Origin: Giardia intestinalis | Lineage: Eukaryota | Assembly: GCA_000002435.2 (NCBI GenBank) | Contig: CM018792.1 | DNA: 64,000 nt | Direction: 5' to 3' (one strand) | Shown: in pieces, positions 22,577-39,776 of the stretch | Numbering within the stretch: position 1 is the first letter of the stretch | How the letters are laid out: each line of letters starts with the position of its first letter | The notes under the pieces: model-generated | Database searches by the model: none | Told to the model about the DNA's origin: nothing | Seen by the model: the letters and a program-made list of their open reading frames with translations, nothing else | Made by a program: the position numbers and the translations under genes

Positions 22577-22831
22577 TTTTATCTTCTAGTCTTGTCTGCC
22601 AAGCTGTAGCCGACTACGCATACTTCGTAATGCGTAGACTATACCTCCTAAATAGCCTTGTCCACTACAGCTGATTCCGATGAACGGATCGTTGCTCCTG
22701 CCACACGGTGCCTTTCCCTATTGTGCACAGCATCCCATGAGCACAAGGCAACACTGAGTAGACGATACAACGGACGTTATCCCTAAGTTAGTGGCCATCA
22801 CCAGGATCCATTGATACATTCACTACCCGAG

Positions 22832-24735
22832 TCACGCCTTCCCCCTGCACAGGAACCACCAGCAGAGGAAGCCCACGAGGCCCCCCACGACGACGACCAC
22901 AGCGACGGAGATCCCCGCGATGGCCCCCGTGGAGAGCCCGCCCCTGTTGGCGCCAGAGGACACACAGGAGGCCCCAGCATCATCAGGGCTGTACCCATCG
23001 TTGCACACACAGACAGAGTTATCATCAGTGGAGTTGCTGGGACAGCCATCCACGCATGACTTCCTCCCAGGGCTCACCTTCCCACTACTACATGCCTCGC
23101 ACATGTCATCCCTGTTGGGCTTCTTACTACTGTCACAGGAGGTACAGACAGCGGGGGCCATACCACCATCAGACAGAGCTGCTGGGGCTGTACACTGGGA
23201 GCAGCCCTCTACCCCCACATATGCCTTAGCAGTATTACCAGTGCCTGTCAGTGTGCCTAGGGGTTACTACAAGCCAACACAGACTGATCAGTGTTGGATG
23301 CACCAGGCACTACGAAGTACCTATTGTTGGCTGCTTCTGTGCAGATCCCAGTATTACCTGCTGTCTTGCACATGAAGCTACCAGGAGCCTTCTGAGTGCT
23401 ATAACAGCCACCCATGTATAGGAAGTAGTTGTTGGTGCACTGTGTACATACACCATTAGCACAAGTATTCCCAGCCTTTTGAGCCTCACTAGCACAGAGA
23501 CCATCTATAGGAGCTTGTGAACTATCTCCACAATAGGAACAGTAGTGCTTTGTGGTGCCCTGATCATCTATTACGATGGCATCACAAGAGCCAGCTGTCC
23601 CCCCACAAGCCGTGGGGTCCTCGCAGGTCTTCTCTGTGCATGTATAGTTGTCTGAGGTTCCAGCGGGCTTCCTGTTAGGCTTGCACTTTGTGCACTTGAG
23701 AGGTCCTGTAGACTCCTTTGTGCACTCGGCACACCCATCGATGCCCCCCTGTGCATTATCACAAGCAACGCACTCACCAGTAGGACCATTGCCTTTCATG
23801 AAGAACCCAGGCTTGCATGTATCACACTTATCATTGCCAGTTTGAGTGCAGGTGGCACAGTTAGCACCTGGACAAGCGGTGCATGTAACCGTACCACTAC
23901 CACTACTGTAGTATCCATCGAGGCACTCCGAGCAGGTCGGCGGTGTCGCCGAGTCCTTGGTACACTTCTTACACCCGGCAATGCCCTGGTAATTTGGATC
24001 GGCTCCAGCTGAAACGGTACTGCATAAAACACATGTTTTGTCCTCCTTCATAAATAGGGCCTCGTCAGCGCCTTTACATCCAGCGTAGTCTTTTGTCACG
24101 CACGTCGAGGTCCCATCAAGGGCCGTCCTGGGGATCTTACTGTTATCACAAGCTGTGCACTTCGGCTTCTTGGTAGTCGAATCAACCTCACACTGGGTAC
24201 ATGCTTGATCTATCGTGTTGCAAGGAAGGCACTTCCCCGACTCCGGGTCAGCATAAGTGTTTCCAGTGCATCCATTATTATTCACGCATGACTTGTCAGT
24301 CTTCAGGTACTTCCCCTCTGGGCACGATGTACAATGATTCTGACCACTTCCATCGCAGGTCAGACAGGACGGATCACACTGCTTGCATTCGTTATTCTCT
24401 TTATAGTACCCTGCTTGGCACTCAGTGCACGTGGCAGGTCCTGGACTATTAGTTGGTTCCGTGCACTTGAGGCAGTTAGCCACCCCCGTATATCCATCTG
24501 CTCCCTTGGTATCCCAGCAGAGGATGCACTCCCTTCCCTTCTCTGATGGTGTAGCAGGGTTCTTGAACAGGCCGTTAGCTGTATTACACTCAGTGCACAC
24601 TCCATTACTGGCTGCTGTGCATATCTCACTGCCAGGGTGTGCATCCTTGTTGTAGCACCCGCCCATGAAGAGGAGTCTCATACTATCACTATCACCCCCA
24701 CACCACATAGCACTATCACTATCACTGTACAGCAT
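22832..24735 (-). pseudogene. VSP unit 0 (N-module A', middle X, C-terminal type 1), frameshifted by loss of one G in a G5 run
   Basis: At 23260-23263 the + strand reads cctaggggttactac (G4), whereas every other X-type unit reads cctagggggttactac (G5). This splits the unit into ORFs 23257..24735 and 22832..23218. Last unit of the array. Confidence 0.65.
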
Positions 24736-24740
24736 TCACT
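24734..24740 (-). promoter_or_regulatory. Giardia-type polyadenylation signal AGTGAAT (AGTRAAY) 6 nt after the unit-1 stop codon, overlapping the unit-0 ATG (AGTGAATG). The same motif recurs at every unit junction and after the last unit (22820..22826)
   Basis: + strand attcact (reverse complement AGTGAAT) at 24734-24740. The identical arrangement occurs at 26630-26636, 28551-28557, 30422-30428, 32226-32232, 34101-34107, 36015-36021, 37932-37938 and 39763-39769 (by periodicity). Consensus AGTPuAAPy is the known Giardia polyA signal. Confidence 0.55.
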
Positions 24741-24747
24741 ACCTAAG

Positions 24748-26631
24748 TCACGCCTTCCCCCTGCACAGGAACCACCAGCAGAGGAAGCCCACGAGGCCCC
24801 CCACGACAGCGACCACGGCGACGGCAATGCCCGCGATGGCCCCCGTGCTGAGGCCGCTCCTATTACTGCCAGAGGACACACAGGAGGCCCCAGCATCATC
24901 AGGGCTGTACCCATCGTTGCACACACAGACAGAGTTATCATCAGTGGAGTTGCTGGGACAGCCATCCACGCATGACTTCCTCCCAGGGCTCACCTTCCCA
25001 CTACTACATGCCTCGCACATGTCATCCCTGTTGGGCTTCTTACTACTGTCACAGGAGGTACAGACAGCGGGGGCCATACCACCATCAGACAGAGCTGCTG
25101 GGGCTGTACACTGGGAGCAGCCCTCTACCCCGACGTATGCCTTAGTATCTACTAGTGTGCCTAATGGGTTGCCACAGGCCAGGACAGACTGATCAGTGTT
25201 GGATGCACCAGGGACTACGAAGTACTTATTATTCTCATTGGCAGCTGTACACTTACCATCGGCTGCTGTCTTGCACATGAGGCTTCCTGGTTCTGTATCA
25301 TACTTATAACACCCACCCATGTACAAGAAGTAGTTGTTAGTGCATTGTGTACATACACCTTGATCACATTGATTATTTGCTTTAGCACTATTACACTTCC
25401 CATCTATAGGATACGTATTAGCTTCTCCACAGTATGAGCAATAATGATGCTCTACACCCTTATCATCAATCACTATTGCATCGCAGGCACCAGAGGTACC
25501 ACCACAAGCCGTGGGGTCTTCACATGTCTTCACACATGTATAGTCATCCCCCGCATCTCCATTGGATTGCTTCCTGTAGTTAGGCTTACATTCAGTGCAC
25601 TTGAACCCATTATTGTTAGAACATAGACTACAGCCTTCACGGCCACCATCTGTTGTACTGTCACAAGCAACGCACTCACCAGTAGAGCCGGGTTGTTTCA
25701 TGAAGAATCCAGGCTTGCATTTAGTGCACTTATCATTGCCAGCTTGAGTGCAGGTGGCACAGTTGGCACCACAGGCTTCACATGTAACCGTACCACCATT
25801 TCCACTATTGTAATATCCGTCGAGGCACTCCGAGCAGGTCGGCTTGGCTCCGTTCTTCTTACATGTTTTACACCCAGGCGTCCCTTTATTAGCTTCTAAA
25901 CTTTCACTATCATCACTACACAATATGCACTTGGTGCTACCATCATTTAGAAAGTGGGATCCGTCAACGTTACTTGTTGCGCACCCATTTGCATCGACAC
26001 AGGTTGTCGTGCCATCGATGGCCGTCTTCACCATCTTCTGACCACCGCAGTTAGTGCACTTCGGCTTCTTGGTAGTCGAATCAACCTCACACTGGGTACA
26101 TGCTTGATCTATCGTGTTGCAAGGAAGGCACTTCCCCGACTCCGGGTCAGCATAAGTGTTTCCAGTGCATCCATTATTATTCACGCATGACTTGTCAGTC
26201 TTCAGGTACTTCCCCTCTGGACACGATGTGCAATGATTCGGACCACTTCCATCGCAGGTCAGACAGGACTGATCACACTTCTCACATGCATCACCCTTCT
26301 TAATGTATCCATCTTGGCAGACAGTGCATGTGGCCGGTCCGCTAGTGCCCGTGTGGGAGCATTCTGAGCATCCAGCGACTCCCATGACCCCGTTTCTATC
26401 TATAGTATCGGAGCACAAGATGCACTCACTACCCTTCTCTGATGGTGTAACTGGGTTCTTGAACAGGCCGTTAGCTGTATTACAAGCAGTGCACAGTCCT
26501 CCCTCAGCCTTTGTGCATATCTCACTGCCAGGGTGTGCATCCTTGTTGTAGCACCCGCCCATGAAGAGGAGTCTCATACTATCACTATCACCCCCACACC
26601 ACATAGCACTATCACTATCACTGTACAGCAT
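24748..26631 (-). CDS. VSP unit 1 (N-module A, middle Y, C-terminal type 1); ATG start but no signal peptide
   Basis: 627-aa intact ORF with ATG at 26629-26631 (cat). Ends FLCWWFLCRGKA, stop at 24748-24750. Confidence 0.8.
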   Translation of the reverse strand: MLYSDSDSAMWCGGDSDSMRLLFMGGCYNKDAHPGSEICTKAEGGLCTACNTANGLFKNPVTPSEKGSECILCSDTIDRNGVMGVAGCSECSHTGTSGPATCTVCQDGYIKKGDACEKCDQSCLTCDGSGPNHCTSCPEGKYLKTDKSCVNNNGCTGNTYADPESGKCLPCNTIDQACTQCEVDSTTKKPKCTNCGGQKMVKTAIDGTTTCVDANGCATSNVDGSHFLNDGSTKCILCSDDSESLEANKGTPGCKTCKKNGAKPTCSECLDGYYNSGNGGTVTCEACGANCATCTQAGNDKCTKCKPGFFMKQPGSTGECVACDSTTDGGREGCSLCSNNNGFKCTECKPNYRKQSNGDAGDDYTCVKTCEDPTACGGTSGACDAIVIDDKGVEHHYCSYCGEANTYPIDGKCNSAKANNQCDQGVCTQCTNNYFLYMGGCYKYDTEPGSLMCKTAADGKCTAANENNKYFVVPGASNTDQSVLACGNPLGTLVDTKAYVGVEGCSQCTAPAALSDGGMAPAVCTSCDSSKKPNRDDMCEACSSGKVSPGRKSCVDGCPSNSTDDNSVCVCNDGYSPDDAGASCVSSGSNRSGLSTGAIAGIAVAVVAVVGGLVGFLCWWFLCRGKA

Positions 26632-26643
26632 TCACTACCTAAG

Positions 26644-28552
26644 TCACGCCTTCCCCCTGCACAGGAACCACCAGCAGAGGAAGCCCACGAGGCCCCCCAC
26701 GACAGCGACCACGGCGACGGCAATGCCCGCGATGGCCCCCGTGCGGAGGCCGCTCCTATTACTGCCAGAGGACACACAGGAGGCCCCAGCATCATCAGGG
26801 CTGTACCCATCGTTGCACACACAGACAGAGTTATCATCAGTGGAGTTGCTGGGACAGCCATCCACGCATGACTTCCTCCCAGGGCTCACCTTCCCACTAC
26901 TACATGCCTCGCACATGTCATCCCTGTTGCAGTGGGAGCATCCCTCAATAGCACATGCGAAGCACCCACTACCATCCCTGTTGGGCTTCTTACTACTGTC
27001 ACAGGAGGTACACACAGCAGCAGTCATGCCACCATCAGATGGAGCTGCTGGGGCTGTACATGCTGAGCAGCCATCCACCCCAACGTATGCCTTAGTATCT
27101 ACTAGTGTGCCTAATGGGTTACCACATGCCAATACAGACTGATTCTGATTGGTTGCCCCTGGGACTACGAAGTACTTATTATTGGCCGCCTCTGTGCATA
27201 TCCCATTGTTACCTGCGGTCTTGCACATGTAGTTGCCTGGTGGACTCTGAGTGCTATAACAGCCACCCATGTACAAGAAGTAGTTGTTAGTGCATTGTGT
27301 ACATACACCTTGATCACATTGATTATTTGCTTTAGCACTATTACACTTCCCATCTATAGGATACGTATTAGCTTCTCCACAGTATGAGCAATAATGATGC
27401 TCTACACCCTTATCATCAATCACTATGGCATCACAGGCACCAGAGGTACCACCACAAGCAGTGTCATCCTCACAGGTCTTCACACATGTATAGTCATCCC
27501 CCGCATCTCCATTGGATTGCTTCCTGTAGTTAGGCTTACATTCAGTGCACTTGAACCCATTATTGTTAGAACATAGACTACAGCCTTCACGGCCACCATC
27601 TGTTGTACTGTCACAAGCAACGCACTCACCAGTAGAGCCGGGTTGTTTCATGAAGAATCCAGGCTTGCATTTAGTGCACTTATCATTGCCAGCTTGAGTG
27701 CAGGTGGCACAGTTGGCACCACAGGCTTCACATGTAACCGTACCACCATTCCACTATGTAATATCCGTCGAGGCACTCCGAGCAGGTCGGCTTGGCTCCG
27801 TTCTTTACATGTTTACACCCGGCGTCCCTTTATTAGCTTCTAAACTTACTCATACAACACATGCTTGGTGCTCCATCATAGAATGGGATCCGTCACGTTA
27901 CTTGCGCAGCCTTTTGCATCGACACAGGTGTCGTGCCATCGATGGCCGTCTCACCATCTTCTGACCACCGCAGTGTGCACTTCGGCTTCTTGGTAGTCGA
28001 ATCAACCTCACACTGGGTACATGCTTGATCTATCGTGTTGCAAGGAAGGCACTTCCCCGACTCCGGGTCAGCATAAGTGTTTCCAGTGCATCCATTATTA
28101 TTCACGCATGACTTGTCAGTCTTCAGGTACTTCCCCTCTGGACACGATGTGCAATGATTCGGACCACTTCCATCGCAGGTCAGACAGGACTGATCACACT
28201 TCTCACATGCATCACCCTTCTTAATGTATCCATCTTGGCAGACAGTGCATGTGGCCGGTCCGCTAGTGCCCGTGTGGGAGCATTCTGAGCATCCAGCGAC
28301 TCCCATGACCCCGTTTCTATCTATAGTATCGGAGCACAAGATGCACTCACTACCCTTCTCTGATGGTGTAACTGGGTTCTTGAACAGGCCGTTAGCTGTA
28401 TTACAAGCAGTGCACAGTCCTCCCTCAGCCTTTGTGCATATCTCACTGCCAGGGTGTGCATCCTTGTTGTAGCACCCGCCCATGAAGAGGAGTCTCATAC
28501 TATCACTATCACCCCCACACCACATAGCACTATCACTATCACTGTACAGCAT
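26644..28552 (-). pseudogene. VSP unit 2, decayed. The N-module A piece (27893..28552) and the middle-Y/C-terminal piece (26644..27651) are separated by a ~250-bp zone with at least 6 small deletions relative to unit 1
   Basis: Alignment of 27740..27960 with 25790..26060 shows multiple 1-3 nt deletions (e.g. accaccatttccactattgtaatatcc vs accaccattccactatgtaatatcc). Also an 18-aa insertion (GSGCFACAIEGCSHCNRD) in the C-terminal module. Confidence 0.7.
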
Positions 28553-28564
28553 TCACTACCTAAG

Positions 28565-30358
28565 TCACGCCTTCCCCCTGCACAGGAACCACCAGCAGAG
28601 GAAGCCCACGAGGCCCCCCACGACAGCGACCACGGCGACGGCAATGCCCGCGATGGCCCCCGTGCGGAGGCCGCTCCTATTACTGCCAGAGGACACACAG
28701 GAGGCCCCAGCATCATCAGGGCTGTACCCATCGTTGCACACACAGACAGAGTTATCATCAGTGGAGTTGCTGGGACAGCCATCCACGCATGACTTCCTCC
28801 CAGGGCTCACCTTCCCACTACTACATGCCTCGCACATGTCATCCCTGTTGGGCTTCTTACTACTGTCACAGGAGGTACAGACAGCGGGGGCCATACCACC
28901 ATCAGACAGAGCTGCTGGGGCTGTACACTGGGAGCAGCCCTCTACCCCCACATATGCCTTAGCAGTATTACCAGTGCCTGTCAGTGTGCCTAGGGGGTTA
29001 CTACAAGCCAACACAGACTGATCAGTGTTGGATGCACCAGGCACTACGAAGTACCTATTGTTGGCTGCTTCTGTGCAGATCCCAGTATTACCTGCTGTCT
29101 TGCACATGAAGCTACCAGGAGCCTTCTGAGTGCTATAACAGCCACCCATGTATAGGAAGTAGTTGTTGGTGCACTGTGTACATACACCATTAGCACAAGT
29201 ATTCCCAGCCTTTTGAGCCTCACTAGCACAGAGACCATCTATAGGAGCTTGTGAACTATCTCCACAATAGGAACAGTAGTGCTTTGTGGTGCCCTGATCA
29301 TCTATTACGATGGCATCACAAGAGCCAGCTGTCCCCCCACAAGCCGTGGGGTCCTCGCAGGTCTTCTCTGTGCATGTATAGTTGTCTGAGGTTCCAGCGG
29401 GCTTCCTGTTAGGCTTGCACTTTGTGCACTTGAGAGGTCCTGTAGACTCCTTTGTGCACTCGGCACACCCATCGATGCCCCCCTGTGCATTATCACAAGC
29501 AACGCACTCACCAGTAGGACCATTGCCTTTCATGAAGAACCCAGGCTTGCATGTATCACACTTATCATTGCCAGTTTGAGTGCAGGTGGCACAGTTAGCA
29601 CCTGGACAAGCGGTGCATGTAACCGTACCACTACCACTACTGTAGTATCCATCGAGGCACTCCGAGCAGGTCGGCGGTGTCGCCGAGTCCTTGGTACACT
29701 TCTTACACCCGGCAATGCCCTGGTCATTTGGATCGGCTCCAGCTGAAACGGTACTGCATAAAACACATGTTTTGTCCTCCTTCATAAATAGGGCCTCGTC
29801 AGCGCCTTTACATCCAGCGTAGTCTTTTGTCACGCACGTCGAGGTCCCATCAAGGGCCGTCCTGGGGATCTTACTGTTATCACAAGCTGTGCACTTCGGC
29901 TTCTTGGTAGTCGAATCAACCTCACACTGGGTACATGCTTGATCTATCGTGTTGCAAGGAAGGCACTTCCCCGACTCCGGGTCAGCATAAGTGTTTCCAG
30001 TGCATCCATTATTATTCACGCATGCATTATCCTTCAGGAACGTATTTCCCTTACAAGAGGTACACTGGGTCGCCGACGTCTCACAGGTCAGGCAAGAGTC
30101 GTTGCACTTCTCACATGCCCCGTTACTATTTAGAAAGTATCCCTCTGTGCAGGTATCACATGTAGCTGCTCCTGCATTCTGTGGTGCCGTACATGTGGCG
30201 CAGTTCTCCACTCCCTTTGTCGCGCCATCTCCCACCGTGTCCCAGCACAGGATGCACTCCCTTCCCTTCTCTGGTGTTGCAGCCGGGTTCTGGAATATGT
30301 ACTGGTTATCTACCTTACAAGCAGTGCACACTCCACTACTGACCTTTGTGCATATCAC
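28565..30358 (-). CDS. VSP unit 3 (N-module B, middle X, C-terminal type 1). No ATG-initiated ORF: the junction ATG at 30421-30423 gives MLYNV* and an expanded TATCAC repeat
   Basis: 597-aa ORF from GTG: ICTKVSSGVCTACKVDNQ...; ends FLCRGKA. Confidence 0.75.
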   Translation of the reverse strand: MICTKVSSGVCTACKVDNQYIFQNPAATPEKGRECILCWDTVGDGATKGVENCATCTAPQNAGAATCDTCTEGYFLNSNGACEKCNDSCLTCETSATQCTSCKGNTFLKDNACVNNNGCTGNTYADPESGKCLPCNTIDQACTQCEVDSTTKKPKCTACDNSKIPRTALDGTSTCVTKDYAGCKGADEALFMKEDKTCVLCSTVSAGADPNDQGIAGCKKCTKDSATPPTCSECLDGYYSSGSGTVTCTACPGANCATCTQTGNDKCDTCKPGFFMKGNGPTGECVACDNAQGGIDGCAECTKESTGPLKCTKCKPNRKPAGTSDNYTCTEKTCEDPTACGGTAGSCDAIVIDDQGTTKHYCSYCGDSSQAPIDGLCASEAQKAGNTCANGVCTQCTNNYFLYMGGCYSTQKAPGSFMCKTAGNTGICTEAANNRYFVVPGASNTDQSVLACSNPLGTLTGTGNTAKAYVGVEGCSQCTAPAALSDGGMAPAVCTSCDSSKKPNRDDMCEACSSGKVSPGRKSCVDGCPSNSTDDNSVCVCNDGYSPDDAGASCVSSGSNRSGLRTGAIAGIAVAVVAVVGGLVGFLCWWFLCRGKA

Positions 30359-30420
30359 ACTCCACTATCACCCTATCACCCTCTATCACCCACTATCACC
30401 CATTATCACACATTGTACAG
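30352..30420. repeat. Variable-copy microrepeat (core TATCAC on the + strand, GTGATA on the coding strand) at unit junctions. About 5 copies at this junction versus 2 at 32164..32239 and 39701..39776. The same core forms the MLYSDSDSAMWCGGDSDS N-terminal codons of the A-type units
   Basis: 30356..30410: ccactatcac cctatcac cctctatcac ccactatcac ccattatcac a. The A-type junction (e.g. 24681..24732) reads catactatcactatcacccccacaccacatagcactatcactatcactgtacag. Confidence 0.7.
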
Positions 30421-30435
30421 CATTCACTACCTAAG

Positions 30436-32163
30436 TCACGCCTTCCCTCTACACACGAACCACCAGCAGAGGAACCCTATGAGACCCCCCACGACGACGA
30501 CCACAGCGACGGAGATCCCCGCGATGGCCCCCGTGGAGAGCCCGCCCCTGTTGGCGCCAGAGGACACACACTTACCACCCTCTAGACTGTATCCATCAAC
30601 ACACTCCCCACATATATTATCCATCACACAGCTCTTGCAGTTGGTGTCAGAGCATGTCACACACCCAGTGCCATCCTTGTTGGGCACCTTACTATTGTCA
30701 CAGGAGGTACACACAGCAGCAGTCATGCCAGCTGTTGTTAGAGCTGCTGGGGCTGTACACTGGGAGCAGCCCTCTACCCCCACATATGCCTTAGCAGTAT
30801 TACCAGTGCCTGTCAGTGTGCCAAGGGGGTTACTACAAGCCAACACAGACTGATCAGTGTTGGATGCACCAGGCACTACGAAGTACCTATTGTTGGCTGC
30901 TTCTGTGCAGATCCCAGTATTACCTGCTGTCTTGCACATGAAGCTACCAGGAGCCTTCTGAGTGCTATAACAGCCACCCATGTATAGGAAGTAGTTGTTG
31001 GTGCACTGTGTACATACACCATTAGCACAAGTATTCCCAGCCTTTTGAGCCTCACTAGCACAGAGACCATCTATAGGAGCTTGTGAACTATCTCCACAAT
31101 AGGAACAGTAGTGCTTTGTGGTGCCCTGATCATCTATTACGATGGCATCACAAGAGCCAGCTGTCCCCCCACAAGCCGTGGGGTCCTCGCAGGTCTTCTC
31201 TGTGCATGTATAGTTGTCTGAGGTTCCAGCGGGCTTCCTGTTAGGCTTGCACTTTGTGCACTTGAGAGGTCCTGTAGACTCCTTTGTGCACTCGGCACAC
31301 CCATCGATGCCCCCCTGTGCATTATCACAAGCAACGCACTCACCAGTAGGACCATTGCCTTTCATGAAGAACCCAGGCTTGCATGTATCACACTTATCAT
31401 TGCCAGTTTGAGTGCAGGTGGCACAGTTAGCACCTGGACAAGCGGTGCATGTAACCGTACCACTACCACTACTGTAGTATCCATCGAGGCACTCCGAGCA
31501 GGTCGGCGGTGTCGCCGAGTCCTTGGTACACTTCTTACACCCGGCAATGCCCTGGTAATTTGGATCGGCTCCAGCTGAAACGGTACTGCATAAAACACAT
31601 GTTTTGTCCTCCTTCATAAATAGGGCCTCGTCAGCGCCTTTACATCCAGCGTAGTCTTTTGTCACGCACGTCGAGGTCCCATCAAGGGCCGTCCTGGGGA
31701 TCTTACTGTTATCACAAGCTGTGCACTTCGGCTTCTTGGTAGTCGAATCAACCTCACACTGGGTACATGCTTGATCTATCGTGTTGCAAGGAAGGCACTT
31801 CCCCGACTCCGGGTCAGCATAAGTGTTTCCAGTGCATCCATTATTATTCACGCATGCATTATCCTTCAGGAACGTATTTCCCTTACAAGAGGTACACTGG
31901 GTCGCCGACGTCTCACAGGTCAGGCAAGAGTCGTTGCACTTCTCACATGCCCCGTTACTATTTAGAAAGTATCCCTCTGTGCAGGTATCACATGTAGCTG
32001 CTCCTGCATTCTGTGGTGCCGTACATGTGGCGCAGTTCTCCACTCCCTTTGTCGCGCCATCTCCCACCGTGTCCCAGCACAGGATGCACTCCCTTCCCTT
32101 CTCTGGTGTTGCAGCCGGGTTCTGGAATATGTACTGGTTATCTACCTTACAAGCAGTGCACAC
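30436..32163 (-). CDS. VSP unit 4 (N-module B, middle X, C-terminal type 2, ending FVCRGKA). No ATG-initiated ORF: the junction ATG gives MLYNV*
   Basis: ORF opens at GTG: (V)CTACKVDNQYIFQNPAATPEKGRECILCWDT... A 76-nt junction (32164..32239) separates it from unit 5. Confidence 0.75.
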   Translation of the reverse strand: MCTACKVDNQYIFQNPAATPEKGRECILCWDTVGDGATKGVENCATCTAPQNAGAATCDTCTEGYFLNSNGACEKCNDSCLTCETSATQCTSCKGNTFLKDNACVNNNGCTGNTYADPESGKCLPCNTIDQACTQCEVDSTTKKPKCTACDNSKIPRTALDGTSTCVTKDYAGCKGADEALFMKEDKTCVLCSTVSAGADPNYQGIAGCKKCTKDSATPPTCSECLDGYYSSGSGTVTCTACPGANCATCTQTGNDKCDTCKPGFFMKGNGPTGECVACDNAQGGIDGCAECTKESTGPLKCTKCKPNRKPAGTSDNYTCTEKTCEDPTACGGTAGSCDAIVIDDQGTTKHYCSYCGDSSQAPIDGLCASEAQKAGNTCANGVCTQCTNNYFLYMGGCYSTQKAPGSFMCKTAGNTGICTEAANNRYFVVPGASNTDQSVLACSNPLGTLTGTGNTAKAYVGVEGCSQCTAPAALTTAGMTAAVCTSCDNSKVPNKDGTGCVTCSDTNCKSCVMDNICGECVDGYSLEGGKCVSSGANRGGLSTGAIAGISVAVVVVVGGLIGFLCWWFVCRGKA

Positions 32164-32239
32164 TCCACTACTGGCCTGTGTGCATATCTCACTCCACTAT
32201 CACCCATTATCACACATTGTACAGCATTCACTACCTAAG

Positions 32240-34102
32240 TCACGCCTTCCCCCTGCAGATGAACCACCAGCAGAGGAACCCTATGAGACCCCCCACGACG
32301 ACGACCACAGCGACGGAGATCCCCGCGATGGCCCCCGTGGAGAGCCCGCCCCTGTTGGCGCCAGAGGACACACACTTACCACCCTCTAGACTGTATCCAT
32401 CAACACACTCCCCACATATATTATCCATCACACAGCTCTTGCAGTTGGTGTCAGAGCATGTCACACACCCAGTGCCATCCTTGTTGGGCACCTTACTATT
32501 GTCACAGGAGGTACACACAGCAGCAGTCATGCCAGCTGTTGTTAGAGCTGTTGGTGCTGTACACCGGGAGCAGCCATATACTCCTACATATGCCTTAGCG
32601 GTACTATCAGTGCCTACTAGTGTGCCTAGGGGGTTACTACAAGCCAACACAGACTGATCAGTGTTGGATGCACCAGGCACTACGAAGTACCTATTGTTGG
32701 CTGCTTCTGTGCAGATCCCAGTATTACCTGCTGTCTTGCACATGAAGCTACCAGGAGCCTTCTGAGTGCTATAACAGCCACCCATGTATAGGAAGTAGTT
32801 GTTGGTGCACTGTGTACATACACCATTAGCACAAGTATTCCCAGCCTTTTGAGCCTCACTAGCACAGAGACCATCTATAGGAGCTTGTGAACTATCTCCA
32901 CAATAGGAACAGTAGTGCTTTGTGGTGCCCTGATCATCTATTACGATGGCATCACAAGAGCCAGCTGTCCCCCCACAAGCCGTGGGGTCCTCGCAGGTCT
33001 TCTCTGTGCATGTATAGTTGTCTGAGGTTCCAGCGGGCTTCCTGTTAGGCTTGCACTTTGTGCACTTGAGAGGTCCTGTAGACTCCTTTGTGCACTCGGC
33101 ACACCCATCGATGCCCCCCTGTGCATTATCACAAGCAACGCACTCACCAGTAGGACCATTGCCTTTCATGAAGAACCCAGGCTTGCATGTATCACACTTA
33201 TCATTGCCAGTTTGAGTGCAGGTGGCACAGTTAGCACCTGGACAAGCGGTGCATGTAACCGTACCACTACCACTACTGTAGTATCCATCGAGGCACTCCG
33301 AGCAGGTCGGCGGTGTCGCCGAGTCCTTGGTACACTTCTTACACCCGGCAATGCCCTGGTAATTTGGATCGGCTCCAGCTGAAACGGTACTGCATAAAAC
33401 ACATGTTTTGTCCTCCTTCATAAATAGGGCCTCGTCAGCGCCTTTACATCCAGCGTAGTCTTTTGTCACGCACGTCGAGGTCCCATCAAGGGCCGTCCTG
33501 GGGATCTTACTGTTATCACAAGCTGTGCACTTCGGCTTCTTGGTAGTCGAATCAACCTCACACTGGGTACATGCTTGATCTATCGTGTTGCAAGGAAGGC
33601 ACTTCCCCGACTCCGGGTCAGCATAAGTGTTTCCAGTGCATCCATTATTATTCACGCATGACTTGTCAGTCTTCAGGTACTTCCCCTCTGGACACGATGT
33701 GCAATGATTCGGACCACTTCCATCGCAGGTCAGACAGGACTGATCACACTTCTCACATGCATCACCCTTCTTAATGTATCCATCTTGGCAGACAGTGCAT
33801 GTGGCCGGTCCGCTAGTGCCCGTGTGGGAGCATTCTGAGCATCCAGCGACTCCCATGACCCCGTTTCTATCTATAGTATCGGAGCACAAGATGCACTCAC
33901 TACCCTTCTCTGATGGTGTAACTGGGTTCTTGAACAGGCCGTTAGCTGTATTACAAGCAGTGCACAGTCCTCCCTCAGCCTTTGTGCATATCTCACTGCC
34001 AGGGTGTGCATCCTTGTTGTAGCACCCGCCCATGAAGAGGAGTCTCATACTATCACTATCACCCCCACACCACATAGCACTATCACTATCACTGTACAGC
34101 AT
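32240..34102 (-). CDS. VSP unit 5 (N-module A, middle X, C-terminal type 2, ending FICRGKA); no signal peptide
   Basis: 620-aa intact ORF. The C-terminal module MTAAVCTSCDNSKVPNKDGTGCVTCSDTNCKSCVMDNICGECVDGYSLEGGKCVSSGANRGG... is shared with unit 4 and resembles the head gene. Confidence 0.8.
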   Translation of the reverse strand: MLYSDSDSAMWCGGDSDSMRLLFMGGCYNKDAHPGSEICTKAEGGLCTACNTANGLFKNPVTPSEKGSECILCSDTIDRNGVMGVAGCSECSHTGTSGPATCTVCQDGYIKKGDACEKCDQSCLTCDGSGPNHCTSCPEGKYLKTDKSCVNNNGCTGNTYADPESGKCLPCNTIDQACTQCEVDSTTKKPKCTACDNSKIPRTALDGTSTCVTKDYAGCKGADEALFMKEDKTCVLCSTVSAGADPNYQGIAGCKKCTKDSATPPTCSECLDGYYSSGSGTVTCTACPGANCATCTQTGNDKCDTCKPGFFMKGNGPTGECVACDNAQGGIDGCAECTKESTGPLKCTKCKPNRKPAGTSDNYTCTEKTCEDPTACGGTAGSCDAIVIDDQGTTKHYCSYCGDSSQAPIDGLCASEAQKAGNTCANGVCTQCTNNYFLYMGGCYSTQKAPGSFMCKTAGNTGICTEAANNRYFVVPGASNTDQSVLACSNPLGTLVGTDSTAKAYVGVYGCSRCTAPTALTTAGMTAAVCTSCDNSKVPNKDGTGCVTCSDTNCKSCVMDNICGECVDGYSLEGGKCVSSGANRGGLSTGAIAGISVAVVVVVGGLIGFLCWWFICRGKA

Positions 34103-34114
34103 TCACTACCTAAG

Positions 34115-36016
34115 TCACGCCTTCCCCCTGCACAGGAACCACCAGCAGAGGAAGCCCACGAGGCCCCCCACGACAGCGACCACGGCGACGGCAATGCCCG
34201 CGATGGCCCCCGTGCGGAGGCCGCTCCTATTACTGCCAGAGGACACACAGGAGGCCCCAGCATCATCAGGGCTGTACCCATCGTTGCACACACAGACAGA
34301 GTTATCATCAGTGGAGTTGCTGGGACAGCCATCCACGCATGACTTCCTCCCAGGGCTCACCTTCCCACTACTACATGCCTCGCACATGTCATCCCTGTTG
34401 GGCTTCTTACTACTGTCACAGGAGGTACAGACAGCGGGGGCCATACCACCATCAGACAGAGCTGCTGGGGCTGTACACTGGGAGCAGCCCTCTACCCCCA
34501 CATATGCCTTAGCAGTATTACCAGTGCCTGTCAGTGTGCCAAGGGGGTTACTACAAGCCAACACAGACTGATCAGTGTTGGATGCACCAGGCACTACGAA
34601 GTACCTATTGTTGGCTGCTTCTGTGCAGATCCCAGTATTACCTGCTGTCTTGCACATGAAGCTACCAGGAGCCTTCTGAGTGCTATAACAGCCACCCATG
34701 TATAGGAAGTAGTTGTTGGTGCACTGTGTACATACACCATTAGCACAAGTATTCCCAGCCTTTTGAGCCTCACTAGCACAGAGACCATCTATAGGAGCTT
34801 GTGAACTATCTCCACAATAGGAACAGTAGTGCTTTGTGGTGCCCTGATCATCTATTACGATGGCATCACAAGAGCCAGCTGTCCCCCCACAAGCCGTGGG
34901 GTCCTCGCAGGTCTTCTCTGTGCATGTATAGTTGTCTGAGGTTCCAGCGGGCTTCCTGTTAGGCTTGCACTTTGTGCACTTGAGAGGTCCTGTAGACTCC
35001 TTTGTGCACTCGGCACACCCATCGATGCCCCCCTGTGCATTATCACAAGCAACGCACTCACCAGTAGGACCATTGCCTTTCATGAAGAACCCAGGCTTGC
35101 ATGTATCACACTTATCATTGCCAGTTTGAGTGCAGGTGGCACAGTTAGCACCTGGACAAGCGGTGCATGTAACCGTACCACTACCACTACTGTAGTATCC
35201 ATCGAGGCACTCCGAGCAGGTCGGCGGTGTCGCCGAGTCCTTGGTACACTTCTTACACCCGGCAATGCCCTGGTAATTTGGATCGGCTCCAGCTGAAACG
35301 GTACTGCATAAAACACATGTTTTGTCCTCCTTCATAAATAGGGCCTCGTCAGCGCCTTTACATCCAGCGTAGTCTTTTGTCACGCACGTCGAGGTCCCAT
35401 CAAGGGCCGTCCTGGGGATCTTACTGTTATCACAAGCTGTGCACTTCGGCTTCTTGGTAGTCGAATCAACCTCACACTGGGTACATGCTTGATCTATCGT
35501 GTTGCAAGGAAGGCACTTCCCCGACTCCGGGTCAGCATAAGTGTTTCCAGTGCATCCATTATTATTCACGCATGACTTGTCAGTCTTCAGGTACTTCCCC
35601 TCTGGACACGATGTGCAATGATTCGGACCACTTCCATCGCAGGTCAGACAGGACTGATCACACTTCTCACATGCATCACCCTTCTTAATGTATCCATCTT
35701 GGCAGACAGTGCATGTGGCCGGTCCGCTAGTGCCCGTGTGGGAGCATTCTGAGCATCCAGCGACTCCCATGACCCCGTTTCTATCTATAGTATCGGAGCA
35801 CAAGATGCACTCACTACCCTTCTCTGATGGTGTAACTGGGTTCTTGAACAGGCCGTTAGCTGTATTACAAGCAGTGCACAGTCCTCCCTCAGCCTTTGTG
35901 CATATCTCACTGCCAGGGTGTGCATCCTTGTTGTAGCACCCGCCCATGAAGAGGAGTCTCATACTATCACTATCACCCCCACACCACATAGCACTATCAC
36001 TATCACTGTACAGCAT
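34115..36016 (-). CDS. VSP unit 6 (N-module A, middle X, C-terminal type 1); ATG start but no signal peptide
   Basis: 633-aa intact ORF. N-terminal 190 aa identical to units 1, 2 and 5; middle identical to units 0, 3, 4, 5 and 7. Confidence 0.8.
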   Translation of the reverse strand: MLYSDSDSAMWCGGDSDSMRLLFMGGCYNKDAHPGSEICTKAEGGLCTACNTANGLFKNPVTPSEKGSECILCSDTIDRNGVMGVAGCSECSHTGTSGPATCTVCQDGYIKKGDACEKCDQSCLTCDGSGPNHCTSCPEGKYLKTDKSCVNNNGCTGNTYADPESGKCLPCNTIDQACTQCEVDSTTKKPKCTACDNSKIPRTALDGTSTCVTKDYAGCKGADEALFMKEDKTCVLCSTVSAGADPNYQGIAGCKKCTKDSATPPTCSECLDGYYSSGSGTVTCTACPGANCATCTQTGNDKCDTCKPGFFMKGNGPTGECVACDNAQGGIDGCAECTKESTGPLKCTKCKPNRKPAGTSDNYTCTEKTCEDPTACGGTAGSCDAIVIDDQGTTKHYCSYCGDSSQAPIDGLCASEAQKAGNTCANGVCTQCTNNYFLYMGGCYSTQKAPGSFMCKTAGNTGICTEAANNRYFVVPGASNTDQSVLACSNPLGTLTGTGNTAKAYVGVEGCSQCTAPAALSDGGMAPAVCTSCDSSKKPNRDDMCEACSSGKVSPGRKSCVDGCPSNSTDDNSVCVCNDGYSPDDAGASCVSSGSNRSGLRTGAIAGIAVAVVAVVGGLVGFLCWWFLCRGKA

Positions 36017-36028
36017 TCACTACCTAAG

Positions 36029-37933
36029 TCACGCCTTCCCCCTGCACAGGAACCACCAGCAGAGGAAGCCCACGAGGCCCCCCACGACAGCGACCACGGC
36101 GACGGCAATGCCCGCGATGGCCCCCGTGCTGAGGCCGCTCCTATTACTGCCAGAGGACACACAGGAGGCCCCAGCATCATCAGGGCTGTACCCATCGTTG
36201 CACACACAGACAGAGTTATCATCAGTGGAGTTGCTGGGACAGCCATCCACGCATGACTTCCTCCCAGGGCTCACCTTCCCACTACTACATGCCTCGCACA
36301 TGTCATCCCTGTTGGGCTTCTTACTACTGTCACAGGAGGTACAGACAGCGGGGGCCATACCACCATCAGACAGAGCTGCTGGGGCTGTACACTGGGAGCA
36401 GCCCTCTACCCCCACATATGCCTTAGCAGTATTACCAGTGCCTGTCAGTGTGCCAAGGGGGTTACTACAAGCCAACACAGACTGATCAGTGTTGGATGCA
36501 CCAGGCACTACGAAGTACCTATTGTTGGCTGCTTCTGTGCAGATCCCAGTATTACCTGCTGTCTTGCACATGAAGCTACCAGGAGCCTTCTGAGTGCTAT
36601 AACAGCCACCCATGTATAGGAAGTAGTTGTTGGTGCACTGTGTACATACACCATTAGCACAAGTATTCCCAGCCTTTTGAGCCTCACTAGCACAGAGACC
36701 ATCTATAGGAGCTTGTGAACTATCTCCACAATAGGAACAGTAGTGCTTTGTGGTGCCCTGATCATCTATTACGATGGCATCACAAGAGCCAGCTGTCCCC
36801 CCACAAGCCGTGGGGTCCTCGCAGGTCTTCTCTGTGCATGTATAGTTGTCTGAGGTTCCAGCGGGCTTCCTGTTAGGCTTGCACTTTGTGCACTTGAGAG
36901 GTCCTGTAGACTCCTTTGTGCACTCGGCACACCCATCGATGCCCCCCTGTGCATTATCACAAGCAACGCACTCACCAGTAGGACCATTGCCTTTCATGAA
37001 GAACCCAGGCTTGCATGTATCACACTTATCATTGCCAGTTTGAGTGCAGGTGGCACAGTTAGCACCTGGACAAGCGGTGCATGTAACCGTACCACTACCA
37101 CTACTGTAGTATCCATCGAGGCACTCCGAGCAGGTCGGCGGTGTCGCCGAGTCCTTGGTACACTTCTTACACCCGGCAATGCCCTGGTCATTTGGATCGG
37201 CTCCAGCTGAAACGGTACTGCATAAAACACATGTTTTGTCCTCCTTCATAAATAGGGCCTCGTCAGCGCCTTTACATCCAGCGTAGTCTTTTGTCACGCA
37301 CGTCGAGGTCCCATCAAGGGCCGTCCTGGGGATCTTACTGTTATCACAAGCTGTGCACTTCGGCTTCTTGGTAGTCGAATCAACCTCACACTGGGTACAT
37401 GCTTGATCTATCGTGTTGCAAGGAAGGCACTTCCCCGACTCCGGGTCAGCATAAGTGTTTCCAGTGCATCCATTATTATTCACGCATGACTTGTCAGTCT
37501 TCAGGTACTTCCCCTCTGGGCACGATGTACAATGATTCTGACCACTTCCATCGCAGGTCAGACAGGACGGATCACACTGCTTGCATTCGTTATTCTCTTT
37601 ATAGTACCCTGCTTGGCACTCAGTGCACGTGGCAGGTCCTGGACTATTAGTTGGTTCCGTGCACTTGAGGCAGTTAGCCACCCCCGTATATCCATCTGCT
37701 CCCTTGGTATCCCAGCAGAGGATGCACTCCCTTCCCTTCTCTGATGGTGTAGCAGGGTTCTTGAACAGGCCGTTAGCTGTATTACACTCAGTGCACACTC
37801 CATTACTGGCTGCTGTGCATATCTCACTGCCAGGGTGTGCATCCTTGTTGTAGCACCCGCCCATGAAGAGGAGTCTCATACTATCACTATCACCCCCACA
37901 CCACATAGCACTATCACTATCACTGTACAGCAT
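36029..37933 (-). CDS. VSP unit 7 (N-module A', middle X, C-terminal type 1); ATG start but no signal peptide
   Basis: MLYSDSDSAMWCGGDSDSMRLLFMGGCYNKDAHPGSEICTAASNGVCTEC... ; ends FLCRGKA; intact 634-aa ORF. Confidence 0.8.
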   Translation of the reverse strand: MLYSDSDSAMWCGGDSDSMRLLFMGGCYNKDAHPGSEICTAASNGVCTECNTANGLFKNPATPSEKGRECILCWDTKGADGYTGVANCLKCTEPTNSPGPATCTECQAGYYKENNECKQCDPSCLTCDGSGQNHCTSCPEGKYLKTDKSCVNNNGCTGNTYADPESGKCLPCNTIDQACTQCEVDSTTKKPKCTACDNSKIPRTALDGTSTCVTKDYAGCKGADEALFMKEDKTCVLCSTVSAGADPNDQGIAGCKKCTKDSATPPTCSECLDGYYSSGSGTVTCTACPGANCATCTQTGNDKCDTCKPGFFMKGNGPTGECVACDNAQGGIDGCAECTKESTGPLKCTKCKPNRKPAGTSDNYTCTEKTCEDPTACGGTAGSCDAIVIDDQGTTKHYCSYCGDSSQAPIDGLCASEAQKAGNTCANGVCTQCTNNYFLYMGGCYSTQKAPGSFMCKTAGNTGICTEAANNRYFVVPGASNTDQSVLACSNPLGTLTGTGNTAKAYVGVEGCSQCTAPAALSDGGMAPAVCTSCDSSKKPNRDDMCEACSSGKVSPGRKSCVDGCPSNSTDDNSVCVCNDGYSPDDAGASCVSSGSNRSGLSTGAIAGIAVAVVAVVGGLVGFLCWWFLCRGKA

Positions 37934-37945
37934 TCACTACCTAAG

Positions 37946-39700: not shown

Positions 39701-39776
39701 TCCACTACTGGCCTGTGTGCATATCTCACTCCACTATCACCCATTATCACACATTGTACAGCATTCACTACCTAAG

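What the first reader, a model, noticed from the sequence alone, without database searches (positions are those of the whole stretch)
24721..24750. Inter-unit junction: stop, 12 nt, ATG, with the polyA signal AGTGAAT overlapping the next unit's ATG
Each CRGKA stop (TGA) is followed by cttaggtagtga ATG. The Giardia polyA consensus AGTRAAY (AGTGAAT) sits 6 nt after the stop and shares its last bases with the downstream ATG. The same 12-nt spacer plus ATG follows the last unit (22817..22831), where it opens only a 33-codon ORF. This shows that the duplicated unit is the 3' end of a VSP gene plus its 12-nt 3' flank. Transcripts ending at one unit's polyA site would sit immediately next to the next unit's start codon, an unusual arrangement that could couple 3' processing to downstream initiation.
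Basis: partly seen in the sequence, partly recalled or inferred. Interest (0 to 1): 0.6.

Follow-up and report, generated by a model that had tools for sequence, protein, structure and literature searches.

The report
Giardia VSP pseudogene array junction
The "stop, 12 nt, ATG" junction is the poly(A) signal that follows every Giardia surface-antigen (VSP) gene, repeated ten times in an already catalogued tandem array of VSP pseudogenes; the ATG is an incidental part of that signal, not a start codon.

Summary
It lies on the minus strand. Ten CRGKA-TGA stops (22832 to 39779) are each followed by 12 nt and an ATG. Nine junctions are identical; the last differs at 2 of the 12 spacer positions. 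The window is Giardia intestinalis WB chromosome NC_051859.1. The locus is a head-to-tail "linear array" of ten VSP pseudogenes, whose published sequences (GL50803_0050264, 0050265 and 0050274) match the window exactly. The junction TG[ACTTAGGTAGTGAATGC]TG fits all 17 positions of the published VSP extended poly(A) signal ACUUAGRUAGURAAYRY. The ATG is the Y=T, R=G state of two degenerate positions and occurs in 210 of 327 genome-wide copies of the signal. The orthologous single VSP of isolate DH has ATG there and that of isolate P15 has ACA. The junction ATGs do not look like start codons. None has the VSP initiator PyAATGTT and none is followed by a signal peptide. Three open 5-codon ORFs and two open truncated ORFs. 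Cleavage is predicted 5-8 nt 3' of the ATG. The proposed coupling of 3' processing to initiation is unsupported. Already known; low interest.

The parts
22816..41963 (-). Head-to-tail linear array of ten VSP pseudogene units: head U0 plus U1-U9. The three published psiVSP sequences that were checked (GL50803_0050264, 0050265, 0050274, all on NC_051859.1) lie in it. The ID series 0050264-0050274 matches the ten junction motifs.
   Evidence: Ten CRGKA-TGA stops. 1.8-1.9 kb direct repeats. Published psiVSP sequences match exactly. No CDS accession between the flanking genes KAE8304521 and KAE8304522.
24748..24750 (-). TGA stop of unit U8 (probably GL50803_0050265). This is the stop of the finding's junction.
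24732..24748 (-). Extended VSP poly(A) signal ACTTAGGTAGTGAATGC. It runs from the last base of the stop through the ATG plus 1 nt and fits ACUUAGRUAGURAAYRY at 17 of 17 positions.
   Evidence: sequence; published consensus; the 20-mer GACTTAGGTAGTGAATGCTG is listed 57 times in WB
24735..24740 (-). Core poly(A) hexamer AGTGAA. The heptamer AGTGAAT is 24734-24740.
   Evidence: AGURAA is the Giardia poly(A) signal
24733..24735 (-). Junction ATG. It occupies the A-Y-R positions of the poly(A) signal. It opens the 492-codon broken ORF of unit U9.
24725..24728 (-). Predicted cleavage/poly(A) site if the signal is used. It gives a 3' UTR of 20-23 nt and lies 5-8 nt 3' of the ATG. This is an inference, not a measurement.
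   Evidence: Signal-to-cleavage distance of 13-16 nt counted from the hexamer start, applied to the coordinates.
24674..24732 (-). Type A linker (CTGTACA + GTGATAG-rich sequence) between the poly(A) signal and the point where homology to the VSP body (LFMGGCY) begins.
   Evidence: The blastn match of the DH VSP starts exactly at 24674.
22816..22834 (-). Terminal junction TGA CTCGGGTAGTGA ATG T. This is the original 3' flank of the locus, and the orthologous DH flank reads the same except for one base.
   Evidence: It is a unique entry in published Table S6, listed for GL50803_0050264.
39777..41963 (-). Head unit U0 (GL50803_0050274). It has a signal-peptide-like stretch FLLIPLFVVSALA but no ATG and no initiator. 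The DH and P15 orthologs have TAATGTT at that position.
37946..39764 (-). U1. Type B linker; the junction ATG opens MLYNV-stop.
36029..37933 (-). U2. Intact 634-codon ORF from the junction ATG to CRGKA.
34115..36016 (-). U3. Intact 633-codon ORF.
32240..34102 (-). U4. Intact 620-codon ORF.
30436..32227 (-). U5. Type B linker; the junction ATG opens a 5-codon ORF.
28565..30423 (-). U6. Type B linker with an expanded 10-nt repeat (30362-30409); the junction ATG opens a 5-codon ORF.
26644..28552 (-). U7. Frameshifted: 219 codons from the junction ATG, then a separate 335-aa ORF that ends in CRGKA.
24748..26631 (-). U8. Intact 627-codon ORF. By position in the ID series it is probably GL50803_0050265, the published example of a pseudogene with 'complete ORF, Met to CRGKA, no signal peptide'. 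The 399-nt published prefix also matches units U7, U4 and U3.
22832..24735 (-). U9 (GL50803_0050264, 1904 nt). Broken into a 492-aa ORF and a 128-aa ORF.

Best explanation
The window is Giardia intestinalis WB chromosome NC_051859.1. Between the acyltransferase gene and the gene GL50803_00111911 lies a head-to-tail 'linear array' of ten VSP pseudogenes.

Every VSP and psiVSP stop codon in this genome is followed by a family-specific extended poly(A) signal, ACUUAGRUAGURAAYRY. The finding's 'stop, 12 nt, ATG' is that signal. The ATG is what the signal reads when its two degenerate positions are T and G.

It recurs ten times because a 1.8-1.9 kb unit was amplified in tandem. The unit is a VSP ORF lacking its first 92 or so codons, plus the stop, 22 nt of 3' flank and a short GTGATAG-rich linker. 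Amplification by unequal crossing-over and homogenisation in patches by gene conversion are inferred, not shown.

The ATG is not a start codon maintained by selection. If the signal is used at all, cleavage is expected about 20-23 nt after the stop, just past the ATG. This is also an inference.

The units are most likely not expressed as proteins. At most they are low-level transcripts or sequence donors for recombination.
For: Identity of the locus:
- The flanking proteins are exact matches to WB KAE8304521 and KAE8304522. These accessions are consecutive, so no CDS is annotated between them.
- Published psiVSP sequences GL50803_0050264, 0050265 and 0050274 match the units exactly.
- The unit proteins hit Pfam VSP PF03302 and VSP homologues.

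Identity of the motif:
- The junction fits the published extended poly(A) signal at 17 of 17 positions.
- The exact 20-mer GACTTAGGTAGTGAATGCTG is listed 57 times, and AGTRAATG occurs in 210 of 327 copies of the signal in WB.
- The terminal junction is a unique entry, listed for GL50803_0050264.

The ATG is incidental:
- The single syntenic VSP in isolate DH has ...AGTGAATGTATCAATGG with no downstream unit. The P15 ortholog has AGTAAACACGTCGATGG. Four other solitary VSPs have AAACG.

The ATG is not a start:
- There is no PyAATGTT anywhere on the coding strand of the array.
- The N-termini lack a hydrophobic stretch: maximum mean Kyte-Doolittle score 1.06, against 2.2-3.0 for the orthologs' signal peptides.
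- The ten junction ATGs open ORFs of 634, 633, 620, 627, 492, 219, 5, 5, 5 and 33 codons.
- The head unit has lost its ATG and initiator relative to DH and P15.

Origin by amplification:
- The 5' part of the DH VSP matches the WB head (86%). Its 3' 1.1 kb plus flank is colinear with U9 and the flanking genes (95.9%).
- The units share a patchwork of near-identical 100-nt blocks.

Literature:
- Linear arrays have short or overlapping spacers and downstream members without an initiator, and are thought non-functional.
- The poly(A) signal lies 13-15 nt from the cleavage site.
Against: - Four units keep uninterrupted 620-634-codon ORFs from the junction ATG to CRGKA. Very recent duplication or conversion explains this (up to 99% identity between units), but it does not exclude expression.
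- Franzen et al. 2013 detected RNA for all 178 WB ORFs with an ATG and a CRGKA tail, including 108 without the initiator (median FPKM 19 against 42). Array members may therefore be transcribed at a low level.
- No 5'-end, 3'-end, ribosome or peptide data for this locus could be examined here.
- The single-copy state in DH and P15 comes from short-read assemblies, which can collapse arrays.
Confidence: 0.9

Rival explanations
1. The junction is a functional bicistronic-like module: cleavage and polyadenylation of one unit's transcript is coupled to transcription or translation initiation at the next unit's ATG, so the units are expressed serially.
For: - Four intact ORFs start at the junction ATG.
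- The 2007 annotation called such an ORF a VSP (XP_001703902.1 starts MLYSDSDS...).
- RNA was detected for initiator-less VSP ORFs in WB.
- Giardia 5' UTRs are only 1-14 nt, so a start site in the 12-nt spacer is conceivable.
Against: - The ATG is part of a family-wide poly(A) motif that is also present where nothing follows it.
- Predicted cleavage is 3' of the ATG.
- There is no initiator and no signal peptide.
- 5 of the 9 in-array ATGs open broken or 5-codon ORFs.
- The units are annotated as pseudogenes by two independent groups.
- psiVSP arrays are not transcribed in G. muris.
Confidence: 0.03
2. The array is a silent donor reservoir. The stereotyped junction (stop + CTTAGGTAGTGAATGCTGTACA + GTGATAG-rich linker) together with the conserved 3' end serves as a homology anchor for gene conversion or unequal crossing-over that reshuffles VSP segments. 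This is compatible with the best explanation for what the junction is; it adds a function for the array.
For: - The units share identical blocks in a mosaic pattern.
- The same junction and linker occur in psiVSPs on other chromosomes, NC_051860.1 and NC_051857.1.
- Complete VSPs followed by the exact 20-mer are the first members of linear arrays.
- A reservoir role has been proposed for G. intestinalis and G. muris arrays.
Against: - No transfer from this array into an expressed VSP was shown here.
- VSP switching in Giardia is described as epigenetic (abstract of Adam 2010).
- Adam et al. also allow that arrays are 'remains of discarded vsp genes'.
Confidence: 0.3
3. The array is transcribed by read-through as long sense or antisense RNA that feeds the RNAi-type silencing of VSPs. 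The junction poly(A) signals are then weak or bypassed.
For: - Pervasive low-level VSP transcription is reported, and RNA interference is cited as a possible regulator.
- Many orphan and antisense poly(A) sites exist in Giardia.
Against: - No locus-specific RNA data were available.
- The ten full-consensus poly(A) signals would be expected to terminate sense transcripts.
- The head unit has no promoter-like initiator.
Confidence: 0.05
4. Assembly artefact: the ten-fold repeat is an over-expansion or mis-join in the assembly.
For: VSP arrays were problematic in earlier assemblies.
Against: - The units differ in length (1804-1921 nt), in linker type and in sequence (64-99% identity).
- The sequence equals the PacBio-based reference annotation, as judged by the three psiVSP sequences checked.
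Confidence: 0.02

Closest known systems
Giardia intestinalis vsp 'linear arrays' / psiVSP arrays (Adam et al. 2010, PMC2996952; Xu et al. 2020, PMC7000408)
   Same: - Head-to-tail VSP copies with very short spacers (published range: overlapping to 241 bp).
- Downstream members lack the initiator PyAATGTT and a signal peptide.
- Near-identical pairs within an array.
- Located on NC_051859.1, probably the chromosome 4 that Adam et al. describe as the most VSP-dense.
- This locus is itself one of those arrays: the three annotated psiVSP sequences that were checked match it exactly.
   Different: Nothing substantive. The 12-nt figure comes from taking the first ATG after the stop. If the spacer is measured to the start of VSP homology it is about 74 nt, close to the published mean of 60 bp.
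VSP extended polyadenylation signal ACUUAGRUAGURAAYRY / MEME motif GACTTAGGTAGTRAAYGCKK (Rodriguez-Walker et al. 2022, bioRxiv 10.1101/2022.03.07.483299)
   Same: - The junction matches at 17 of 17 positions and begins with the last base of the stop.
- The motif is restricted to VSPs and psiVSPs.
- The exact 20-mer is listed 57 times in WB.
   Different: None. The 'ATG' is the Y=T/R=G variant. 210 of 327 copies have it and 107 have AAACG or GAACG instead.
Giardia muris telomere-adjacent psiVSP arrays (Xu et al. 2020, PMC7641422)
   Same: - Tandem arrays of VSP copies without signal peptides, generated by duplication.
- Evidence of recombination or gene conversion.
- Regarded as silent reservoirs.
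   Different: - The G. muris arrays are telomere-adjacent, their tail is GCRGK, and they are documented as non-transcribed.
- This array is chromosome-internal with a CRGKA tail, and its transcription status is unknown.
Silent arrays of surface-antigen pseudogenes in Trypanosoma brucei (VSG) and Pneumocystis (MSG)
   Same: Tandem arrays of promoterless or defective antigen genes with conserved 3' ends that could anchor recombination. The G. muris paper draws this analogy.
   Different: In those systems gene conversion into an expression site is the demonstrated switching mechanism. In Giardia, switching is described as epigenetic or post-transcriptional, and donation from arrays is only inferred.
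Signal compaction in diplomonads: poly(A) signal overlapping the stop codon (G. muris, Spironucleus salmonicida, some G. lamblia genes; PMC9014877)
   Same: The poly(A) signal is packed against or into a neighbouring coding signal in a very compact genome.
   Different: There the overlap is with the gene's own stop codon and shapes 3' UTR length. Here the overlap is with an ATG that shows no evidence of use.

Membership tests
Functional VSP gene (criteria of Rodriguez-Walker 2022 / Xu 2020) | N-terminal signal peptide | tested here: not met
   From the junction ATG or any of the next three in-frame Met residues, the maximum mean Kyte-Doolittle score over 10 aa is 1.06 or less. The Inr-Met N-termini of the DH and P15 orthologs score 2.2-3.0. 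The published SignalP/Phobius/TOPCONS result for GL50803_0050265 is 'no SP in any Met in frame'. The head unit has a signal-peptide-like stretch but no ATG.
Functional VSP gene | Initiator/Kozak-like PyAATGTT at the start codon | tested here: not met
   The junctions read GAATGCT, and the terminal one reads GAATGTA. No PyAATGTT occurs on the minus strand between 22.8 and 42.1 kb. The head unit reads AGCCTTT where DH and P15 have TAATGTT.
Functional VSP gene | Cys-rich ectodomain with many CXXC motifs and a GGCY motif | tested here: met
   Intact units have 11.4-11.6% Cys, 24-26 CXXC motifs and 2 GGCY motifs. Pfam PF03302 hits with E = 2.9e-39.
Functional VSP gene | Conserved transmembrane domain followed by a CRGKA tail | tested here: met
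   All ten units end ...GGL(V/I)GFLCWWF(L/I/V)CRGKA-stop.
Functional VSP gene | Extended poly(A) signal ACUUAGRUAGURAAYRY just after the stop | tested here: met
   17 of 17 positions at nine junctions and 15 of 17 at the terminal one (compared).
psiVSP linear array (Adam 2010; Xu 2020) | Two or more adjacent head-to-tail VSP copies with spacers from overlapping to about 241 bp | tested here: met
   Ten units on one strand. The stop-to-next-ATG distance is 12 nt, and the distance to the start of VSP homology is about 74 nt or about 50 nt depending on linker type.
psiVSP linear array | Downstream members lack a proper start, initiator and signal peptide and are annotated as pseudogenes | tested here: met
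   Exact sequence identity to annotated psiVSPs GL50803_0050264, 0050265 and 0050274. No protein accessions exist between the flanking genes.
psiVSP linear array | Not expressed (hypothesised for G. intestinalis, shown for G. muris) | not testable with these tools
   No RNA or protein data for this locus were available. The literature is mixed: G. muris arrays are silent, while RNA was detected for initiator-less WB ORFs.
Giardia poly(A) signal AGURAA | AGURAA hexamer within about 20 nt upstream of a mapped cleavage site | tested here: inconclusive
   The hexamer AGTGAA is present 7 nt after each stop. It is absent from unit bodies on the coding strand. No cleavage-site data could be consulted, so actual use is inferred.

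The most novel reading that the evidence does not exclude
The stereotyped array junction is more than a passive scar. One reading is that it is a recombination module that propagates psiVSP units between chromosomes. The junction is the stop, then the poly(A) signal with its conserved AAYGC extension, then the TGTACA palindrome, then a GTGATAG-rich microsatellite of variable length. A second reading is that the four intact ORFs starting at the junction ATG are translated into VSP-like proteins without a signal peptide, from low-level transcripts.
Probability: 0.05. Interest if true: 0.45.

Novelty: already known. Interest (0 to 1): 0.1.

Why it matters
As found, it adds little. The locus, its pseudogene status, the linear-array organisation and the extended poly(A) motif containing the ATG have all been published. 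The practical value is a caution: in Giardia VSP arrays the first ATG after a stop is part of the 3'-end signal and should not be taken as a start codon. The 2007 annotation did take it as one. psiVSP arrays remain relevant as a possible reservoir for antigenic diversity, and this locus shows clear mosaicism between units. It also shows an instructive history. Isolates DH and P15 have a single initiator-bearing VSP at this position, while WB has a headless ten-unit array plus a decayed 5' relic.

Tried and rejected
- Tandem Repeats Finder did not report the array because its maximum period is 500 nt. The repeat finder and a CRGKA scan did find it.
- Exact look-up of five unit ORFs in the protein collection found nothing. 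This fits their pseudogene status.
- The look-up of encoding contigs returned nothing for three WB VSPs. Solitary VSP flanks were taken instead from ENA, P15 and DH assemblies.
- The expression tables in the Rodriguez-Walker supplements are truncated as stored and hold no rows for these psiVSP IDs. Transcription of this array therefore could not be checked.
- The bacterial promoter/terminator scanner and the RNA-family tools were not used, because the sequence is eukaryotic protein-coding DNA.
- Considered and rejected: the ATG as a selected start codon.
- Considered and rejected: an assembly artefact. The units differ from one another and match the reference annotation.
- Considered and rejected: that the shared 'spacer + ATG' at the terminal copy proves the ATG belongs to the duplicated unit. 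It is instead the ancestral 3' flank, which is also present in DH.
- The plus-strand ORFs of 112-193 aa that span each junction were treated as antisense by-products of the repeat and not pursued.


Full report
**1. What is in the sequence**

The finding lies on the minus strand. Reading the reverse complement of 24750-24733 gives TGA CTTAGGTAGTGA ATG. It is preceded by TGC AGG GGG AAG GCG, which encodes CRGKA.

A scan for CRGKA followed by a stop finds ten sites, all on the minus strand. Their stop codons begin (low coordinate) at 22832, 24748, 26644, 28565, 30436, 32240, 34115, 36029, 37946 and 39777.

The 18-mer TGACTTAGGTAGTGAATG matches ten times with up to 2 mismatches, against 0.00 expected in shuffles. 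Nine copies are exact. The terminal copy (22834-22817) reads TGACTCGGGTAGTGAATG, so its spacer differs at 2 of 12 positions.

AGTGAAT begins after 7 nt (CTTAGGT), not 6, and shares its last two bases with the ATG. The 33-codon ORF after the last unit is confirmed.

The observation therefore stands with small corrections.

**2. What the locus is**

The flanking ORFs 21416-22576(-) and 42165-43493(-) are exact matches to Giardia intestinalis WB proteins KAE8304521 (acyltransferase) and KAE8304522 (GL50803_00111911), on a 2,761,001-bp contig. These accession numbers are consecutive, so no protein-coding gene is annotated in the 19.6 kb between them. None of five unit ORFs is present in a collection of 15 billion proteins.

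The unit proteins are VSPs:
- Pfam PF03302, E = 2.9e-39.
- All homologues are Giardia VSPs.

Supplementary Table S7 of Rodriguez-Walker et al. (bioRxiv 10.1101/2022.03.07.483299) gives sequences for pseudogenes GL50803_0050264, 0050265 and 0050274 on NC_051859.1. Their first 399 nt match the window exactly at the unit starts 24735/37933, at 26631/28552/34102/36016, and at 41684. GL50803_0050264 is listed as 1904 nt, which is exactly 22832-24735.

[quoted passage not shown] By its place in the ID series it is probably the unit whose stop is the finding's stop, although its 399-nt prefix also matches three other units.

The region is therefore a published psiVSP array. Adam et al. 2010 (PMC2996952) described such "linear arrays". 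They hold over half of the WB vsp copies. Their spacers range from overlapping to 241 bp (mean 60). None of the downstream members has the initiator PyAatgTT, and they are thought to be non-functional. Xu et al. [quoted passage not shown]

**3. What the junction is**

Rodriguez-Walker et al. report that all 136 WB VSPs carry an extended poly(A) signal, ACUUAGRUAGURAAYRY. It is found almost only after VSPs and psiVSPs (323 of 327 hits).

The junction TG[ACTTAGGTAGTGAATGC]TG fits all 17 positions. The "ATG" is the A-Y-R part of the motif with Y = T and R = G.

Their Table S6 lists the exact 20-mer GACTTAGGTAGTGAATGCTG 57 times. Across the 327 hits the variants are:

| Variant | Count |
|---|---|
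| AGTGAATG | 184 |
| AGTAAATG | 26 |
| AGTAAACG | 103 |
| AGTGAACG | 4 |

ATG therefore sits at this position in 210 of 327 copies.

The terminal junction GACTCGGGTAGTGAATGTAT is a unique entry, assigned to GL50803_0050264. The nine IDs 0050265, 0050266 and 0050268-0050274 all carry the exact 20-mer. This matches the nine identical junctions in the window.

Complete VSPs followed by the exact 20-mer (GL50803_00115742, 41472, 137606, 137620, 137608) are marked as first members of linear arrays in Adam's supplementary table. VSPs not marked as array members, such as 112693 and 117473, also have ATG at this position with other continuations.

The ATG thus belongs to the 3'-end signal. The extension ...ATGCTGTACA is the genome-wide array-type junction: 127 of the 327 hits contain ATGCTG, and the same linker occurs in psiVSPs on NC_051860.1 and NC_051857.1.

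**4. Independent test with orthologous loci**

The syntenic locus of isolate P15 (assemblage E) has one VSP between the 1722-aa gene and the acyltransferase. Isolate DH (assemblage AII) has one VSP 256 nt from the acyltransferase.

| Isolate | 3' flank after the stop |
|---|---|
| DH | TGA ctcaggtagtgaATGtatcaatggatcctggtgatgg |
| WB, terminal junction | TGA ctcgggtagtgaATGtatcaatggatcctggtgatgg |
| P15 | TAG acttaggtagtaaACAcgtcgatggatcctg |

The DH flank is the same as the WB terminal flank apart from one base. Four other solitary VSP flanks read AAACG.

The ATG therefore predates the array in the A lineage, exists where there is no downstream unit, and is not conserved in assemblage E.

blastn shows that the DH gene's 5' part matches the WB head unit (86%). 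Its last 1.1 kb plus flank is colinear with unit U9 and the neighbouring genes (95.9%). The simplest reading is that the WB array is an internal tandem expansion of a single-gene arrangement. The caveat is that DH and P15 are short-read assemblies.

**5. Anatomy of the units**

The units are 1804-1921 nt long, and five of the nine lengths are not multiples of three.

All junctions share the stop plus CTTAGGTAGTGAATGCTGTACA. After that come two linker types:
- Type A (six junctions). A 62-nt GTGATAG-rich stretch, after which homology to the VSP body starts at LFMGGCY, residue 92 of the head unit.
- Type B (three junctions). It reads ATG CTG TAC AAT GTG TGA, and homology starts further in, at EICT. 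One copy has an expanded 10-nt repeat.

The ORFs opened by the ten junction ATGs have 634, 633, 620, 627, 492, 219, 5, 5, 5 and 33 codons.

Pairwise identity between the repeat units U1-U9 runs from 64% to 99%, with a patchwork of near-identical 100-nt blocks. This is the signature of unequal crossing-over and gene conversion.

**6. Why the ATG is not a start codon**

- VSP start codons sit in PyAATGTT (135 of 136 VSPs). The junctions read GAATGCT. No PyAATGTT exists on the coding strand of the array.
- There is no hydrophobic signal sequence after the junction ATG or the next in-frame Met residues. The maximum mean Kyte-Doolittle score is 1.06, against 2.2-3.0 for the DH and P15 signal peptides. 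This agrees with the published predictions.
- The head unit has the signal-peptide coding stretch but reads AGCCTTT where DH and P15 have TAATGTT, so it has neither an ATG nor an initiator.
- Giardia poly(A) signals lie mostly 13-15 nt from the cleavage site (PMC9014877). VSP examples give 15-16 nt counted from the first base of the hexamer. Here the hexamer starts 8 nt after the stop. Cleavage is therefore predicted 20-23 nt after the stop, about 24728-24725, which is 5-8 nt 3' of the ATG (inference). The ATG would end up in the upstream 3' UTR, not at the 5' end of a downstream RNA.

**7. What remains open**

Four units keep intact ORFs, which their recent homogenisation explains. Franzen et al. 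2013 detected RNA for all 178 WB ORFs with an ATG and a CRGKA tail, including 108 without the initiator, at lower levels. In G. muris the psiVSP arrays are essentially not transcribed. I could not examine RNA, ribosome or peptide data for this locus. Non-expression is therefore inferred, not shown. Whether the array donates sequence to expressed VSPs is also untested.

**8. Verdict**

The functional half, coupling of 3' processing to downstream initiation, is not supported and is contradicted by several lines of sequence evidence.

The feature is an already described property of Giardia VSP linear arrays and of the VSP extended poly(A) signal. Interest is 0.1.

Noticed in passing
window 45035-45145 (-): A decayed 5' relic of a VSP gene lies 291 nt from the start of the 1722-aa gene. 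Its ATG (45145-45143) sits in CGATGTT, a mutated initiator, and the signal-peptide region has a 1-nt deletion. With one base restored it reads MLLSVFCFVxNTFTAPCNSGRNHLVTCAHKKC, colinear with the start of the single P15 VSP at this position.
   Followed up: yes
window 42165-45035: About 3 kb is present in WB between the VSP 5' relic and the array head, with no counterpart in the P15 locus. It carries a 442-aa ORF (42165-43493, GL50803_00111911) that has no Pfam hit but has near-identical paralogues in WB (GL50803_00113952, 00114445, 00d114445 on the 2.76-Mb and 4.02-Mb contigs). It may be a repeated element associated with VSP regions.
   Followed up: partly
window 41900-41970 (-): The head unit of the array keeps a signal-peptide-like stretch (FLLIPLFVVSALA) but has lost the ATG and the TAATGTT initiator that the DH and P15 orthologs have. 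The sequence upstream of that point is unrelated to DH.
   Followed up: yes
window 30362-30409, and the first 40-110 nt of each unit: The linker after each junction is a GTGATAG-rich microsatellite-like stretch. It comes in two types and varies in copy number; TRF reports period 10 with 5 copies in unit U6. The same linkers occur in psiVSPs on other chromosomes according to published Table S7.
   Followed up: partly
window 22816-41963 (-): On the coding strand of the 19-kb array, AGTRAAY occurs only at the ten junctions and never inside a unit body. This fits the reported depletion of the poly(A) hexamer from Giardia coding sequence.
   Followed up: partly
window 24637-25192 (+), recurring at 26533, 28454, 34004 and 35918: Repeated plus-strand ORFs of 112-193 aa span each junction antisense to the VSP units. 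They are most likely by-products of the repeat and its composition.
   Followed up: no
window 13760-14623 (-) and 14560-21171 (+): Two divergently oriented ORFs (287 aa, TPR-like, and 2203 aa) overlap by 64 nt at their 5' ends. The same overlap is called in the DH locus (L004 20756-21619 and 14208-20819). One start codon may be mis-assigned.
   Followed up: no
L004 1-10380 (DH) compared with the window: Upstream of the DH VSP the gene order differs from WB and P15: a radial-spoke-3 gene and others replace the 1722-aa gene. This points to a rearrangement, or an assembly join, at the 5' side of this VSP locus in assemblage AII.
   Followed up: no
window 55818-55877: A 12-nt tandem repeat (AGAAAGTTGCGA, 5 copies) lies inside or near the 55548-56417 (-) ORF.
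   Followed up: no
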